A DNA stretch of 64,000 bases, taken from positions 41,299-105,298 of IMG/VR virus record IMGVR_UViG_3300037258_000375. One strand, written 5' to 3'. This stretch comes from a virus. The notes beneath the pieces are model-generated. The model did no database searches, was not told the origin of the DNA, and saw only the letters and a program-made list of their open reading frames with translations. Of this stretch, positions 41,404 through 48,075 are shown one piece after another. Each line of letters starts with the position of its first letter. The first letter of the stretch is position 1. Made by a program: the position numbers and the translations under genes.

Positions 41404-41940
41404 ATGACAAACATTGAAGAAAAGGCGATGGTGTTTGCCACGCGAGCCCACAGAGGGCAGTTGAGAAAGTATACGAACGATCCGTACATTGTGCATCCAC
41501 TGACGGTCGCGGAGATCGTACGCGCCGTTCCCAACCACACAGAAGAGATGATCGCCGCCGCGTGGCTGCACGATGTCAAGGAAGATTGCGGCGTTCAACT
41601 GCCGGAGATCGCGGTAGAGTTCGGCTGGCCGGTCGCCACCATGGTTGATGAACTCAGCGACGTCTCGACCCACTTCGATGGCAACAGGAAGGCACGGAAG
41701 GCCATCGATCTACGACACACAGCGAAGGCGTCTCCGCAGAGCAAGACGATCAAGCTGGCCGACCTCATCGACAACACATCGAGCATCGTGCAATTCGACC
41801 CGAAGTTTGCGAAGGTCTACCTGCCGGAGAAGCTGGCCCTTCTCGAAGTGCTCAAGGATGGCGATTCCGAACTCTGGAAACGAGCCTACAGGTTGGCGCG
41901 GAGAAACGTCTCCCACACCGCGATGTTCTCCAGCCGATAA
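41404..41940 (+). CDS. HD-domain (p)ppGpp hydrolase-like (SpoT/Mesh1 type), leaderless
   Basis: FA..AH.GQ.RK....PYI.HP..VA, AA.LHDV.ED, IKLAD..DN. Confidence 0.88.
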   Translation: MTNIEEKAMVFATRAHRGQLRKYTNDPYIVHPLTVAEIVRAVPNHTEEMIAAAWLHDVKEDCGVQLPEIAVEFGWPVATMVDELSDVSTHFDGNRKARKAIDLRHTAKASPQSKTIKLADLIDNTSSIVQFDPKFAKVYLPEKLALLEVLKDGDSELWKRAYRLARRNVSHTAMFSSR

Positions 41941-42140: not shown

Positions 42141-42172
42141 AAAAAAAGGGCTGCGGGGATTGGCCCCGCAGC
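42141..42172 (-). terminator. terminator of Y-RNA/Ro60 operon
   Basis: GCUGCGGGG-CCAAU-CCCCGCAGC followed by CCUUUUUUU. Confidence 0.8.
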
Positions 42173-42197: not shown

Positions 42198-42488
42198 CTA
42201 GATCGACTCGCCAAGGTCTGCCAACTCCTTGTCGATCTGCGCGCGCTTCTCCTGAGCAGTCTTAAGGCTCTCGCGCTCTGACTTCAACTGACGAATACGC
42301 GTCGCACGACGGTCTTCCATACGTGAAGAAATCTCACGGGAAATGGTATTCAGGTTATCGGAAACGTACTCCGGAACCGTGACCTTCTGTGCCTCGAACT
42401 CGCTACGAAGCTGCTTACCGAATGCTGACAGTGCGACAAGCTCATCGATGTCAGACTCTACATTGAAGTTCTTGAAATCCTGAAGCAT
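42198..42488 (-). CDS. small coiled-coil protein downstream of Ro60
   Basis: AGGAGG RBS before MLQDFK. Confidence 0.7.
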   Translation of the reverse strand: MLQDFKNFNVESDIDELVALSAFGKQLRSEFEAQKVTVPEYVSDNLNTISREISSRMEDRRATRIRQLKSERESLKTAQEKRAQIDKELADLGESI

Positions 42489-42601
42489 GGTCTTCCTCCT
42501 TTCCGCGATCCTCTGCTTCGAGAGATCGACAAAGATATTCTTCTTCGGAACCCTATTGCGGCTCGGGTTCTCATGCTTCTTGTTGTGGTAGTTCACTGCC
42601 A

Positions 42602-44110
42602 TCACACACCTACCAGTTCCGTATCCTTCAGCACATCGCTGAGCGACTTCAACGGCGTCGCCATGATCTCGTCAACGAGGCTGTACTGGTTCGACCGCAT
42701 CGTCTGCACAAGGTTCGGGATCGCATAATAGTCCGTCTTGCCGTCGCGAAGATCGAACGTCTGCATCTCGATACCCAGTGCATTCATGCGGTAGCTCAAG
42801 TTATCTGTACCGCCAGCGCAGTGGTAGAAGTAGACCGGCACGTCCTTATCCACGAACGTCGCATACTTCTTATACACATCCGGGAAGTGAGGTGCCCTAT
42901 TCTCCTCGCCGTCCGACACGATGGCAATGCCGTCAACCGCGATCTTCTCCGCCAGCATCCGATTCAGACCGCAACCGATGGACGTCGCCGAGCCAGTCTT
43001 GATGTGCTTCGTCGCGGCGATGACCTGATCCAGCGAGCAACCGGTGACATCTACAGTCATCGGAGTTTCGTCGAAGAACACGAGATACACCTTGCCCTTC
43101 ACGAACTGCGCCAGAGACGCCGCCACATGCTTACCGAACTCGATGCTCTTCTCCATGCTCGGGCTGCGATCCACCAGCACAAGCCAATCGCCAGCCGGAC
43201 CGCCAGCCTTCGCGATCTGCTTCGCCTGCAAGCCGCGCAGCTTCTCCTTCAGGCCCTCATCCGTGACGCCCTCGACTGCCTGGGTCGTCTTGAGCGTGTT
43301 CTGCGTAGACGTTGCCGCCTTCTGAAGTGCCTGCTCAAGCGCACCACGCAAAGCTGGGTTGGTCTTGACGCCGAGCTTCTCCAACATCTTCATGCTGGTC
43401 GCTAACTCGGTTGCCGTCATTTGGCCGATGAGGGCCAACACAAGGTCCGGCTCCTTCGCCTTCGCACCAAGAGCACCCGCAGCGATCAAGAACGGCACCT
43501 TGAACCTGATGATTGCGCCCGCCGCCTCAACCGGAGACATGTCCTTGAGGTGTGCCACTGCTTCGAAGACAGAGCCCTTCGGCAAAGCCAGCTTGGTCAC
43601 AACCACGGTACCGTCGATCTTCTCCTTCCACTGGCCGGAGATGACCGCAGCGACGCGGCGGTTACCAGGACCGGTACGTGAGAGCGCGTACAGCGCCTTG
43701 AGCACGCTGCGGTGCTGGATCGCGATGTGATCCCAGTTCCGTGACTCTTCCTTCTGCCGGAGATAGGCGCGAATCACGCGATCCATCTGCGACATCTTGC
43801 CCTTCGGACGAATCTCACGCACGAAATCGAAGGCGCGGCGCAACTCACGCGGGCCGAGCGCAGCCATGTGCGCGACGCTGTTGTCGAGTAATTCGAGATC
43901 ACTCTCGAACGCGAGGCCGAGAACCGGCAACGCGACCTTGCTGTCACGAATCTGACCATGCCGCGCGTTCCAGGCGATCAAATGCTGGAAGAACTCGCCA
44001 TCCTGCGCAATGGCCTGCTTGCCAACCTCGACATACTCGCCGAGCTTGCCGTGAGGAGACTTACTCAACTCGCTAAAAACCTTGGAGCGCGTTAAACCCT
44101 GCTTCTCCAT
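42602..44110 (-). CDS. Ro60/TROVE-vWA RNA-binding protein (divergent)
   Basis: helical N-domain (R..GQIRD) plus vWA with LVDRSPSM, T, IVSDGEEN; adjacent Y-like RNAs. Confidence 0.8.
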   Translation of the reverse strand: MEKQGLTRSKVFSELSKSPHGKLGEYVEVGKQAIAQDGEFFQHLIAWNARHGQIRDSKVALPVLGLAFESDLELLDNSVAHMAALGPRELRRAFDFVREIRPKGKMSQMDRVIRAYLRQKEESRNWDHIAIQHRSVLKALYALSRTGPGNRRVAAVISGQWKEKIDGTVVVTKLALPKGSVFEAVAHLKDMSPVEAAGAIIRFKVPFLIAAGALGAKAKEPDLVLALIGQMTATELATSMKMLEKLGVKTNPALRGALEQALQKAATSTQNTLKTTQAVEGVTDEGLKEKLRGLQAKQIAKAGGPAGDWLVLVDRSPSMEKSIEFGKHVAASLAQFVKGKVYLVFFDETPMTVDVTGCSLDQVIAATKHIKTGSATSIGCGLNRMLAEKIAVDGIAIVSDGEENRAPHFPDVYKKYATFVDKDVPVYFYHCAGGTDNLSYRMNALGIEMQTFDLRDGKTDYYAIPNLVQTMRSNQYSLVDEIMATPLKSLSDVLKDTELVGV

Positions 44111-44139: not shown

Positions 44140-44691
44140 TTATGGGAGTGTACGAGTTCTGAGATATTCGAGAAGGTCGATATAGCTGATCTTCTTCAAC
44201 TGGCACCACGCCACCGCCGACATACCACCTTTGTCTTTGTTGCATTTTCGGCACGCAGACAGGTAGTTACTCGGATCATTCAAGCCGCCCATCTCCAACG
44301 GATTGAAGTGGTCAATGGTCAATTGAACCTTGCCCATCGGCAGACTACAGTACACACATTTACAGCCGTCAGCCATCCATACTTTCTGCTGGACGGCACC
44401 GGAAATGTCGTAGCGTAGCTTCCGATGGAAAATCTTCTCCATCGAGCCTTGGACAAGAATCTCAGGATCGTCCGATCTCTGGAGCCAGTCCGACCATTCT
44501 TCGGTGGTAAGAATTCGAACTGACGCTACAGTAGAAAGACCACGCGCGTTCGGCAATAAGAACACGGCTTGCGCGCCTTCGCCGCCGATCACGACACCTT
44601 CAATTTTGAGGATGGAGCCTACGTCGCCGTGGAGAGCGGGACGATGGCGCAATTCTAGCTGATAAAATCTTGAGTCACTCGCCATCGTCAT
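44140..44691 (-). CDS. HNH nuclease with extra N-terminal domain
   Basis: DG.KCVYC, LTIDHF.P...GG....NY.SAC.KCN..K. Confidence 0.85.
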   Translation of the reverse strand: MTMASDSRFYQLELRHRPALHGDVGSILKIEGVVIGGEGAQAVFLLPNARGLSTVASVRILTTEEWSDWLQRSDDPEILVQGSMEKIFHRKLRYDISGAVQQKVWMADGCKCVYCSLPMGKVQLTIDHFNPLEMGGLNDPSNYLSACRKCNKDKGGMSAVAWCQLKKISYIDLLEYLRTRTLP

Positions 44692-44709
44692 CCCCCCGGA
44701 TCGAACTTA

Positions 44710-44843
44710 CGTGCTGTAGTCGATATGGCTTAGATTTTGCAGAGCCTTTCGGCCCGCGCCCCCCGTATATGAAGCCGGTATGGTGGTGGAAGGGGCCGGG
44801 GTTTCCCCCGGAACAAGATCATGTACCCATGTCAGTCAGCACG
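44710..44843 (-). ncRNA. Y-RNA-like unit 1
   Basis: GUGCU-GACUG-ACAUGGG-UACAUG...CCAUAU-CGACUAC-AGCAC. Confidence 0.8.
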
Positions 44844-44850
44844 AACTTAA

Positions 44851-44965
44851 TGCAGCGGCCAAGGAGGCAATTCGTAGCGGTAAAACCTGCTGTTGAGCTT
44901 CAGAGAGTCACTCGGCTCCGCTACACCCTTCTATTCCAGCCTCGGTAGGTCACCCCGCCGCTGCA
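44851..44965 (-). ncRNA. unknown rod-like structured RNA in Y array
   Basis: nested stems UGCAGCGGC/GCCGCUGCA, GAGGC/GCCUC, GUAGCGG/CCGCUAC. Confidence 0.6.
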
Positions 44966-44977
44966 AAACAAACTTGA

Positions 44978-45055
44978 TCGCGGTACCTTCTATGGCTCTC
45001 GAAGAGTACCTGTTTGGGATCGCATCCTTCTAAAGCCTTCCCTCGGGCACCGCGA
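44978..45055 (-). ncRNA. unknown four-way-junction RNA in Y array
   Basis: UCGCGGU/ACCGCGA closing three hairpins. Confidence 0.55.
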
Positions 45056-45058
45056 ACT

Positions 45059-45172
45059 TGGCTGGGGAACTCGGTTACGAGCCGAGAGCCTTCTTGCGAA
45101 GGCGCAAAGACATGTATCCAAGTCAGTCGGCAGTAACGCCGTAGTCGATCTGGAACTTCTTCAGTTCCCCAG
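45059..45172 (-). ncRNA. Y-RNA-like unit 2 (permuted; acceptor stem, T arm, CCA end)
   Basis: CGACUAC-GGC-loop-GCC-GACUG..UACAUG inside CUGGGGAA/UUCCCCAG-CCA. Confidence 0.8.
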
Positions 45173-45180
45173 TAAAACTT

Positions 45181-45241
45181 GCTGGCGGGAGTTGCCTCGG
45201 CACCTTCCACTCCCGGATCGCCTCGCGGCTGTCGAGCCAGC
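45181..45241 (-). ncRNA. unknown small three-way-junction RNA in Y array
   Basis: GCUGGC/GCCAGC, CGGGAGU/ACUCCCG, GCC-GCGA-GGC. Confidence 0.55.
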
Positions 45242-45249
45242 TAAATTAT

Positions 45250-45368
45250 TGGGGGCGGGTCTTGGATTCGAACCAAGATGCTCAGTTGATGAGACTTCGC
45301 TTTGCCATGTACCCGAATCTGTCAGCGTTTCCGCTGTAGTCGCTCCGGATTGTTTCATAACCCGCCCC
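45250..45368 (-). ncRNA. Y-RNA-like unit 3 (permuted; tRNA with D arm replaced by Y stem)
   Basis: GGCGGGU/ACCCGCC-C-CCA; CUUGG-UUCGAAU-CCAAG; CGACUAC..GACAG..UACAUG. Confidence 0.82.
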
Positions 45369-45375
45369 AACTTAC

Positions 45376-45498
45376 TGACCTGTAGTCGAAGTGCTATTCC
45401 CTTTCGGGAACGGAGTTGGAATTGAACCAACAACCTTCTGCTTAAGAGGCAGATGCTCTACCAAGTGAGCTATCCATGTAAGCACTTCAGTCAGGCCA
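45376..45498 (-). ncRNA. Y-RNA-like unit 4 carrying a tRNA-Lys(CUU) body
   Basis: Y stem enclosing D arm, UCUGC-CUCUUAA-GCAGA, T arm, GAAA hairpin. Confidence 0.85.
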
Positions 45499-45511
45499 TT
45501 CTCAAACTTAC

Positions 45512-45648
45512 TGGGCTGTAGTCGATCTGCTTGTGTTGCTAAGCGCTCTACCACTGAGCTAATCCCGCATAAAATTATGGGGCGGGATGAAGGATTCGAA
45601 CCTCCGACCTCTGCCTTGGAAGGGCATGTAAGCAAATCAGTCAGCCCA
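45512..45648 (-). ncRNA. Y-RNA-like unit 5, YrlA-type (T-acceptor-D order) from tRNA-Gly halves
   Basis: Y stem enclosing CUUCCAA arm, T arm, AUCCCGC-CCCA-spacer-GCGGGAU, D arm. Confidence 0.85.
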
Positions 45649-45655
45649 TACTTAC

Positions 45656-45731
45656 TGGCTTGTAGTCGTTCCGCATTGCCTTTCGGCGTGTTCGTGTTCA
45701 AAGCGATCATGTATGCGAAACAGTCAAGCCA
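45656..45731 (-). ncRNA. Y-RNA-like unit 6 (minimal)
   Basis: UGGCUU-GACUG-UUUCGCA-UACAUG...UGCGGAA-CGACUAC-AAGCCA. Confidence 0.8.
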
Positions 45732-45744
45732 TACTCAAAATTTC

Positions 45745-45861
45745 TCCGCTGTAGTCGTCTGGCAACCCCTTGCGGGGACACGGTCGGATTTGAACCGACT
45801 GCTTTTCATCCAAATTGAAATGTGGGACCAACCCACACATGTAAGCCAAACAGTCAGCGGA
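45745..45861 (-). ncRNA. Y-RNA-like unit 7 with degenerate tRNA body
   Basis: Y stem enclosing D-like arm, AUUUGGA loop arm, GUCGG-UUCAAAU-CCGAC, GCAA hairpin. Confidence 0.82.
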
Positions 45862-45881
45862 AACTCAAACTCAACTTCACA

Positions 45882-45910
45882 ACCTTACCACAACCCTGTC
45901 ATGCGCGCAA
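45882..45910 (-). promoter_or_regulatory. promoter of Y-RNA/HNH/Ro60 operon
   Basis: TTGCGC-17 bp-(TGG)TAAGGT with upstream A-tract; same TTGCGCGCAT as promoter at 48911. Confidence 0.65.
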
Positions 45911-47473: not shown

Positions 47474-47689
47474 AAAAATCAGGCAGAACCAGTATATCCC
47501 GAACCTGCACTTGTAATCACAACGGAAGCAATCCGGCCATTCGCATTGAGGGTTACCTCGGTCCCAACCCGGCGAGCCTCCCAGGCACGAGCCGATCTCA
47601 GAAAGATATTCCGGATCAGAGCCGCTTTCCGCCGCCTCTGAATCCGCGCCAAGACCTTCTTGCGCTTGTGCTTCTTTTTGCGATTCTCG

Positions 47690-48050
47690 GGCATAAAAAT
47701 CGAGGCCGGGTATTGCTTTGCATGGAACCCGGCGAACCACGGATAGCTGTTTTTAGGCAGCCATCGGCAACGCATTATCCTCAGCGTTTATTGGTCTGCA
47801 TCCCTTTTGCGGGCGGTAGCAGGGTTCCCGGCACGAAGCTGGAGTTCATTGATCTCGTCGAAACCTTGACGCCCCCACCAAGAAACACTGATTGAGAAAT
47901 GTCTAGCCTGTCCACGAAGCTTTTTGACCAGCTTCGCCCTCGTAGCGCCGGAATCGAACCGACGACGCAATTAGTGCTTCTTGGTGGAGGCGGCGGGAGT
48001 CGAACCCGCGTCCGAAATCAACTTCCTTCAGTGTTGACGTGCGTAACTCA
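47690..48050 (-). ncRNA. ssrA: circularly permuted (two-piece) tmRNA, tag (A)AEDNALPMAA*
   Basis: acceptor piece ending GGUUCGACUCCCGCCGCCUCCACCA (47982) precedes 5' piece GGGGGCG..UUCGAC (47876); G3-U pair; tag at 47785-47753; outer ends approximate. Confidence 0.88.
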
Positions 48051-48075
48051 AATACTGCTCTCCTTTTCTTGAAAA

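What the first reader, a model, noticed from the sequence alone, without database searches (positions are those of the whole stretch)
44705..45910. Array of seven Y-RNA-like units with interchangeable tRNA-derived modules, upstream of HNH and Ro60
Seen: seven copies of a stem with near-invariant GACWG-N7-UACAUG on one strand and CGACUAC on the other, with fully co-varying flanking helices (44710, 45059, 45250, 45376, 45512, 45656, 45745). Most units are followed by an AAGUU-like spacer like those after several tRNAs here. They share one promoter with an HNH gene, a TROVE-vWA gene and a coiled-coil gene. Established: Ro60 binds a bulged terminal stem of Y RNAs (GGUCCGA/UUGACU type), and bacterial YrlA RNAs mimic tRNA; loci usually have one or two such RNAs. 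Inference: this is a modular Ro60 RNP toolkit in which one Ro-binding handle displays diverse tRNA-like baits or adaptors, for example decoys for anticodon nucleases or tethers for the HNH nuclease.
Basis: partly seen in the sequence, partly recalled or inferred. Interest (0 to 1): 0.92.

Follow-up and report, generated by a model that had tools for sequence, protein, structure and literature searches.

The report
Phage array of Ro60-handle RNAs
An uncultured soil phage carries seven different small RNAs in a row, most of them tRNA look-alikes, that all share one conserved structured handle and sit just upstream of a very divergent Ro60 gene; known Ro60 systems have one to four partner RNAs.

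Summary
GACWG-N7-TACATG occurs seven times on the minus strand at 44711-45860, against 0.04 expected, each with its own complementary CGACUAC half.

The shared module is an outer helix, an asymmetric loop (5' AC, 3' ACUA), a 9-bp inner helix and UACAUG. A covariance model built only from distant relatives finds the five linear units. It gave 96 hits in 51 sources, all upstream of and on the strand of the same protein gene. Of the cells, 91.5% pair (58% when shuffled) and 450 carry double changes. U5 and U6 are circular permutations.

The protein at 42602-44110 escapes Pfam TROVE but folds as Ro60 (Z 18-20 over about 440 residues, MIDAS intact). Rfam YrlA aligns full-length, below threshold, to one unit class in relatives and shares ACUU and UAC with the module.

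The inserts are a tRNA body, a YrlA-type permuted tRNA, minimal hairpins and acceptor/T-arm scaffolds with encoded CCA. Anticodons differ between phages.

My reading is a polycistronic array of Y-RNA-like Ro60 ligands. This is a new variant of a known kind. RNA binding, processing and biological role are untested. The decoy and HNH-tether ideas have no support. The scan had already noted this same stretch in other readings.

The parts
45882..45910 (-). Promoter-like element TTGCGC-N17-TAAGGT just upstream of U1
   Evidence: The hexamers and the 17-nt spacing are conserved in W, L001 and L002 while the spacer sequence differs (alignment A5). The generic scan did not list it. Function is inferred.
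45745..45860 (-). U1: terminal handle enclosing D-like hairpin, 7-nt-loop arm, T arm and GCAA hairpin
   Evidence: R1 20.6 bits, E 4e-5. MFE fold z -3.5. Rfam tRNA 27 bits, below threshold. Hairpins covary with L001 and L002.
45656..45732 (-). U2: minimal unit, handle plus GAAA-capped hairpin
   Evidence: R1 31.4 bits. Fold z -4.4.
45512..45648 (-). U3: YrlA-type unit. Order: anticodon-like arm (UCC), T arm, acceptor-like stem with C+CCA in its loop, D arm
   Evidence: R1 33.4 bits. Rfam YrlA 29 bits over model positions 23-86. Acceptor stem covaries and NCCA is kept in L001 and L002.
45376..45498 (-). U4: tRNA-Lys(CUU)-like body with truncated acceptor, GAAA hairpin, inside the handle
   Evidence: ARAGORN and Rfam tRNA 56.6 bits, with mismatched acceptor pairs. 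R1 24.9 bits. The anticodon is UGU in L001.
45250..45368 (-). U5: permuted unit. Acceptor stem and T arm with C+CCA; the handle is an internal GAAA-capped arm
   Evidence: Fold. Permuted-module scan. Orthologues in L001 and L002.
45178..45246 (-). X0: motif-less hairpin RNA, specific to this phage
   Evidence: Inserted relative to L001 and L002. No homologue in the other loci.
45061..45172 (-). U6: permuted unit, handle capped by UUAC inside a 7-bp closing stem
   Evidence: Present in L002, absent in L001.
44975..45056 (-). X1: motif-less structured RNA
   Evidence: Fold z -3.6. Absent from relatives.
44848..44968 (-). X2: motif-less stretch, weakly structured
   Evidence: Fold z -1.5. Absent from relatives.
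44711..44843 (-). U7: terminal handle with G+C-rich hairpins
   Evidence: R1 16.9 bits, E 5e-4. Orthologues in L001 and L002.
44140..44691 (-). HNH endonuclease gene with a conserved N-terminal domain of unknown fold
   Evidence: Pfam HNH_5 1e-9. Orthologues in 26 of 62 loci. Catalytic His, Asn and Cys4 are invariant. The N-terminal part is modelled at low confidence.
42602..44110 (-). Divergent Ro60 (TROVE-like ring plus vWA with MIDAS)
   Evidence: Foldseek top 13 hits are all Ro60. VIA-align Z 18-20 over 430-443 residues for the nine best entries; the tenth, phiLo 9l5y, Z 16.8 over 408. DxSxS is invariant. Pfam TROVE finds nothing.
42198..42605 (-). Conserved 135-aa helical protein of unknown family
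   Evidence: An orthologue lies directly downstream of Ro60 in 52 of 62 loci. No family found.
42150..42172 (-). Intrinsic terminator closing the operon
   Evidence: 9-bp stem with 8 G-C pairs, followed by a T run.

Best explanation
The region is a polycistronic array of Y-RNA-like noncoding RNAs that serve the phage's own, highly divergent Ro60. All seven units carry one conserved handle. The handle is an outer helix, an internal loop with invariant 5' AC and 3' ACU(A/U), a U.G and G-C step, a 9-bp inner helix, and single-stranded UAC followed by AUG. I take this to be the Ro60-binding site, homologous to the stem of YrlA. Each unit joins the handle to a different effector module: a tRNA body, a YrlA-type permuted tRNA, a minimal hairpin, or an acceptor/T-arm scaffold in which the handle is an internal arm. 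Inferred steps are as follows. Transcription starts at the conserved promoter before U1 and runs through HNH, Ro60 and the 135-aa gene to the terminator. The precursor is cut in the AAGUU spacers, which resemble RNase E sites, and at the tRNA-like acceptor stems by RNase P and 3' trimming, exposing the encoded CCA. Ro60 binds the handle. The tRNA-mimic modules gate Ro60 or tether it to host tRNA-binding or RNA-decay enzymes such as PNPase. This would serve RNA surveillance within the phage's large tRNA island.
For: The motif count is far above chance. MFE folds give the same module in the five linear units, and the capped outer helix with most of the inner helix in U5 and U6. Model R1, built only from 10 units of distant loci, finds U1-U4 and U7 at E 5e-9 to 5e-4 and nothing else in the window or the 105-kb genome. 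It gave 96 hits in 51 sources, all on the Ro60 strand and all upstream of Ro60. Covariation is strong: 91.5% of cells paired against 58% in shuffles and at most 46% when slid, 450 double-change cells, outer helix 99% paired. The protein has the Ro60 fold. Rfam YrlA aligns over all 114 positions to one unit class in L027, L025 and L017 at 40-49 bits, and maps ACUU and UAC onto our module. U3 has the YrlA architecture. Acceptor stems with NCCA are kept in U3 of W, L001 and L002, and in U5 of W and L002 but not L001. This parallels M. smegmatis YrlA, which is cut by RNase P and receives CCA (PMC4201824). Phage Ro60 with upstream Y-like RNAs and PNPase binding is documented for phiLo (PMC12135203).
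Against: No binding or expression data exist. Pfam TROVE and PDB sequence searches do not detect the protein. The canonical GNCGAA Ro-contact motif is absent. No window unit reaches the Rfam YrlA gathering score. Some relatives embed apparently complete tRNAs in the handle, which also fits a processing-stem role. The count of structure pairs alignment was fitted to the model.
Confidence: 0.72

Rival explanations
1. The handles are leader-trailer processing stems of a tRNA-like operon. On this view they are recognised by a nuclease (RNase III, RNase E or the HNH protein) that releases the enclosed tRNA-like RNAs. Ro60 is then a neighbour or a general chaperone rather than a specific ligand partner.
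For: In relatives some units enclose tRNAs scoring 57-67 bits with near-complete acceptor stems, and two are followed by NCCA. AAGUU spacers also flank ordinary tRNAs. The HNH gene lies inside the array in L017, L020 and L025-L027.
Against: The handle is kept as a GNRA- or UUCG-capped internal hairpin in 22 distinct permuted units, where it cannot join transcript ends. Loop nucleotides and UACAUG are 94-100% conserved, which points to sequence-specific recognition. The module occurs only next to Ro60 and not around the phage's 30 ordinary tRNAs. It aligns to the YrlA stem. The two helices of 6 and 9 bp are short for RNase III.
Confidence: 0.13
2. The tRNA-mimic units are decoys or sponges for host tRNA-targeting defences such as anticodon nucleases, stabilised by Ro60.
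For: The anticodon triplet is the most variable part of an otherwise conserved tRNA body across 14 units: CUU, UGU, GAA, UCA, UUA, UUC, UGA, AAU, UAU. The operon is embedded in a phage tRNA island.
Against: Variable anticodons are equally expected from neutral drift in a non-decoding RNA. 28 of the 96 units found are minimal and have no tRNA part. No nuclease target is known. This is compatible with, but not required by, the main explanation.
Confidence: 0.1
3. The repeats act at the DNA level, as target or recombination sites of the HNH endonuclease, or they are decaying tRNA pseudogenes.
For: An HNH gene is adjacent. Unit number is labile: 4 units in L168, 5 in L169, 6 in L001, 7 in W and L002.
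Against: All hits are strand-specific, with none on the opposite strand in either control. There are hundreds of compensatory changes and a conserved U.G pair that is meaningful only in RNA. The HNH gene is absent from more than half of the loci that have arrays.
Confidence: 0.03

Closest known systems
Bacterial and phage YrlA / Y RNA-like RNAs with Rsr (Ro60) (Chen et al. 2014, PMC4201824; Rfam RF02553)
   Same: They lie on the same strand within a few kb upstream of Ro60. They are modular: a stem with an internal loop plus a tRNA-like effector domain. U3 has the T arm, acceptor-like stem, D arm order. Rfam YrlA aligns full-length to the equivalent unit in relatives, sharing 3' ACUU and the UAC after the inner helix. 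The acceptor-like stem with CCA recalls M. smegmatis YrlA processing.
   Different: Scores are below the gathering threshold: 29 bits here and 40-49 in relatives, against 69. The GNCGAAN0-1G motif is replaced by YUGACUG...UACAUG. There are seven units instead of one or two. Most units are not YrlA-shaped. Two units have the handle circularly permuted into an internal arm.
Thermus phage phiLo Ro60 with Yrl1 and Yrl2 (PMC12135203; PDB 9KOP, 9L5Y)
   Same: A phage-encoded Ro60 with Y-like RNAs directly upstream. The fold matches at Z 18.7 (9kop) and 16.8 (9l5y).
   Different: phiLo has two RNAs identified through a CGAA motif. Its protein is recognisable as Ro60 by sequence. No tRNA-body chimeras or permutations are described.
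Deinococcus radiodurans Rsr with Yrn1/Yrn2 and vertebrate Ro60 with Y1-Y5
   Same: Several (2-4) distinct Y RNAs share one Ro-binding helix and differ in the effector loop. The Y RNA tethers Ro60 to PNPase (RYPER) or gates the cavity.
   Different: The conserved helix sequence differs (GGUCCGA/UUGACU). The RNAs are separate genes rather than a tight array. There are no full tRNA bodies.

Membership tests
Ro60 / TROVE protein | Match to the Pfam TROVE domain PF05731 | tested here: not met
   There is no hit at E 0.01 for the protein and none at E 1 in the whole genome. PDB sequence and profile searches are empty.
Ro60 / TROVE protein | Helical-repeat ring domain followed by a vWA domain, matching solved Ro60 structures over both domains | tested here: met
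   Foldseek's top 13 hits are all Ro60, at TM 0.55-0.64. VIA-align gives Z 18.0-19.8 over 415-443 residues for nine entries and Z 16.8 over 408 for 9l5y. The next hits are vWA-only, at Z about 14.
Ro60 / TROVE protein | MIDAS motif (DxSxS) in the vWA domain | tested here: met
   D314, S316 and S318 are invariant in 24 homologues.
Ro60 / TROVE protein | [quoted passage not shown] | not testable with these tools
   Only co-location and co-orientation are shown.
YrlA (Rfam RF02553) | Covariance-model score at or above the gathering score of 69 bits | tested here: not met
   U3 scores 29 bits over model positions 23-86. Relatives score 40.5-49 bits over positions 1-114.
YrlA (Rfam RF02553) | tRNA-like domain in the order T arm, acceptor-like stem, D arm, inside a terminal stem | tested here: met
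   Met for U3 only. 13 of the 96 units in relatives have this order.
YrlA (Rfam RF02553) | GNCGAAN0-1G motif near the 5' end | tested here: not met
   The 5' strand reads (outer helix)-AC-UG...UACAUG in all seven units.
YrlA (Rfam RF02553) | Encoded within 4 kb of Ro60 on the same strand | tested here: met
   The array lies 0.6-1.75 kb upstream of the Ro60 start. All 96 hits are on the same strand and upstream.
Y RNA (general class) | 80-130 nt RNA whose paired 5' and 3' ends form a stem with a conserved internal loop | tested here: met
   Met for U1-U4 and U7, which are 77-137 nt. Not met for U5 and U6, where the handle is a capped internal arm.
tRNA (for U4) | Cloverleaf with a 7-bp acceptor stem and a free 3' end | tested here: not met
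   D, anticodon and T arms are intact (56.6 bits), but the acceptor has two non-pairs and continues into a hairpin and the handle.
Free-standing HNH homing endonuclease | Sporadic presence and variable position among close relatives | tested here: inconclusive
   It is present in 26 of 62 loci, at two different positions. However, it is 46-70% identical over its full length, with a conserved N-terminal domain.

The most novel reading that the evidence does not exclude
This phage clade has turned the Ro60/Y RNA system into a combinatorial toolkit. One protein-binding handle is recombined, including by circular permutation, with a changing set of tRNA mimics whose anticodon loops diversify between phages. 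Ro60 RNPs would then intercept or recruit several different tRNA-directed host enzymes, such as defence nucleases, or repair or decay factors, during infection.
Probability: 0.2. Interest if true: 0.85.

Novelty: new variant of a known kind. Interest (0 to 1): 0.68.

Why it matters
What the tRNA-like domain of bacterial Y RNAs binds is still an open question. This clade offers many natural variants of one handle joined to different tRNA mimics, plus permuted forms that define the minimal binding element. It also has a conserved small partner protein. Over 760 homologues of the Ro60 were found in metagenomes, and at least 38 of the 51 related sources searched carry arrays. The material is therefore ready for binding, structure and pull-down work. 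It also shows that a large phage Ro60 clade is invisible to Pfam TROVE, so Ro60 systems in viruses are under-counted.

Tried and rejected
- **Public phage records:** INPHARED has no DNA match to the operon beyond tRNAs. It has one 28%-identical protein match, in a 595-kb uncultured phage, and model R1 finds no units there.
- **Sequence-based detection of the protein:** Pfam, PDB sequence and PDB profile searches do not recognise it as Ro60.
- **Reverse search in IMG/VR:** a scan for minimal units gave 84 pattern matches. 72 were structurally incompatible chance hits. Of the 12 compatible ones, 6 lie beside a Ro60 homologue. The other 6 share one spacing; the one I read (L116) lies in a protein-coding sequence, so I take them for one family of chance matches.
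- **Coding reading:** a 112-aa ORF (45372-45710) starts at the AUG of U2's UACAUG. I rejected it as coding because there is no Shine-Dalgarno sequence and the indels against L001 and L002 are not multiples of three.
- **RNA repair genes:** RtcB and the CCA-adding enzyme are absent from the phage genome.
- **Other proposed HNH ORFs:** three ORFs that another note called HNH gave no Pfam hit. Only two HNH genes are detected in the genome.
- **HNH N-terminal domain:** it was modelled at low confidence, so I ran no fold search on it.
- **135-aa protein:** no family was found in Pfam, PHROGs or the ESM Atlas.
- **Permuted units:** I did not build a covariance model for them. They were found with a script, with an opposite-strand control of zero.

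Full report
**Observation.** All genes in this part of the window are on the minus strand, so I read the array as RNA on that strand. The pattern GACWG-N7-TACATG occurs seven times in 64 kb, all between 44820 and 45855, where shuffles give 0.04. CGACTAC occurs 13 times against 5.2 expected, and seven of these lie in the array, one per unit. Each 5' half matches its own 3' half at 11-13 of 13 variable stem positions. Non-cognate combinations reach 5-12, typically about 8. Unconstrained MFE folding of the five linear units returns the same module. It consists of a 6-7 bp outer helix, an internal loop with AC on the 5' strand and ACUA on the 3' strand, and a 9-bp inner helix that starts with U.G and G-C, followed by UACAUG. 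In U5 and U6 the fold returns the capped outer helix and most of the inner helix. Z-scores are -3.5 to -4.9 for U1-U6 and -2.0 for U7. In U5 and U6 the order of the halves is reversed, and the outer helix is closed by GAAA or UUAC. There the handle is an internal arm of a larger RNA.

**The protein.** The 502-aa product of 42602-44110 gets only a weak vWA hit in Pfam and PHROGs. PDB sequence and profile searches return nothing. The Pfam TROVE model finds nothing in the whole 105-kb genome. An AlphaFold2 model built from 24 homologues has mean pLDDT 80. Its 13 best Foldseek hits are all Ro60: phiLo, human, Xenopus and Deinococcus. VIA-align gives Z 18-20 over 415-443 residues spanning both domains for nine entries, and Z 16.8 over 408 for 9l5y. 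The next hits are vWA-only, at Z about 14. The MIDAS DxSxS motif is invariant. I conclude that this is a divergent Ro60. More than 760 homologues exist in metagenomes, on contigs of up to about 140 kb. Six MAG contigs carry it, and four are binned with Acidobacteriota. That is only a hint at the host.

**The RNA module across relatives.** I fetched 62 viral loci that encode the protein. I built covariance model R1 from ten short units of loci whose Ro60 is 47-66% identical to this one. No window sequence went into the model.
- With default filters R1 finds U3, U2 and U1 and nothing else in the window. In the whole genome it finds these three and U4, and nothing outside the array.
- With filters off it finds all five linear units, at E 5e-9 to 5e-4.
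- Over 51 sources (493 kb, both strands) it gives 96 hits at E <= 0.1. Every hit is on the Ro60 strand and upstream of the Ro60 gene.
- On that alignment 91.5% of cells form standard pairs, against 58% in shuffles and at most 46% when the partner is slid. There are 450 double-sided changes, and the outer helix is 99% paired. The alignment was fitted to the model, so these numbers lean towards the structure.
- Loop A, C and the 3' ACU, the U.G/G-C step and UACAUG are 85-100% conserved.
- A script found 22 distinct permuted handles in the loci. Most are capped by GNRA or UUCG loops, and none occurs on the opposite strand.
- Arrays with several units are common. Lower-bound counts are 1-6 per locus in 38 sources. 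By the motif scan or by eye, the nearer relatives carry 7 units in L002, 6 in L001, 5 in L169 and 4 in L168.

**Relation to known Y RNAs.** In the window Rfam YrlA hits only the tRNA-like core of U3 (29 bits). In L027, L025 and L017 it aligns over all 114 model positions, at 40-49 bits, below the gathering score of 69. That alignment places our outer helix, loop, inner helix and UAC onto the YrlA stem, whose consensus shares the 3' ACUU and the UA(C) after the inner helix. The published GNCGAAN0-1G contact motif (PMC4201824) is not present. The handle is therefore best read as a divergent version of the YrlA Ro-binding stem, in step with the divergent protein.

**Effector modules.**
- U1 and U4 hold D, anticodon-like and T arms plus a GNRA hairpin.
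- U4 is a tRNA-Lys(CUU) body with a truncated acceptor.
- U3 has the YrlA order.
- U3 and U5 carry a 7-nt acceptor 3' strand followed by a discriminator and CCA. In U3 this is kept, with compensatory stem changes, in L001 and L002. In U5 it is kept in L002 but not in L001. This recalls RNase P cleavage and CCA addition of M. smegmatis YrlA (PMC4201824).
- U2 is minimal.
- Among the 96 hits, 28 are minimal, 25 have a T arm only, 13 have the YrlA order, 12 have the tRNA order, 2 have a D arm only and 16 have neither arm.
[quoted passage not shown] This could reflect selection or drift.

**Operon.** A TTGCGC-N17-TAAGGT element upstream of U1 keeps its hexamers and spacing in W, L001 and L002. A strong terminator follows the third gene. 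AAGUU marks 8 spacers in the array and abuts several tRNAs. It resembles RNase E sites, but that is an inference. The 135-aa helical protein follows Ro60 in 52 of 62 loci. The HNH orthologue is present in 26 of 62, either next to Ro60 or inside the array. Its active-site residues and its N-terminal domain are conserved. Its role is open.

**Verdict.** The Ro60/Y-RNA framework is supported by fold, synteny and partial covariance-model homology. Binding, processing and biological role remain untested. I found no published description of such arrays, tRNA-body chimeras or permuted handles in the held library. Published systems have one to four Y RNAs (PMC4201824, PMC12135203).

Noticed in passing
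45178-45246, 44975-45056, 44848-44968 (minus strand): Three stretches without the handle (X0, X1, X2) are inserted in the array. Each is bounded by AAGUU. They are absent from L001 and L002 and have no homologue in any fetched locus.
   Followed up: partly
42198-42605 (minus strand): A 135-aa basic and coiled-coil protein lies directly downstream of Ro60 in 52 of 62 related loci. Pfam, PHROGs and the ESM Atlas give no family. It is a candidate RNP partner.
   Followed up: partly
44416-44691 (minus strand; HNH residues 1-92): The N-terminal domain of the HNH protein is as conserved as the nuclease domain (RFY, GD.G, EEW, D.PE), but AlphaFold2 models it at pLDDT 34-65.
   Followed up: partly
L007:2708-2780; L025:1843-1915: In these relatives the tRNA body enclosed by the handle carries a suppressor-like anticodon: UCA in L007 and UUA in L025.
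   Followed up: no
41404-41940 (plus strand): An HD_4 domain protein (Pfam E 4e-15) is encoded on the opposite strand just beyond the operon terminator.
   Followed up: no
47662-48074 (minus strand): A permuted (two-piece) tmRNA, 101 bits in Rfam, lies within the same tRNA island about 1.8 kb upstream of the array.
   Followed up: no
L168-L173 (MAG contigs): Homologues of the Ro60 occur on contigs binned as Acidobacteriaceae, Acidobacteria or Ca. Acidiferrales in 4 of 6 cases. This is a possible host hint.
   Followed up: no
45372-45710 (minus strand): A mechanical 112-aa ORF starts at the AUG of U2's UACAUG and runs through U3 and U4. It is not conserved in frame in L001 or L002.
   Followed up: yes
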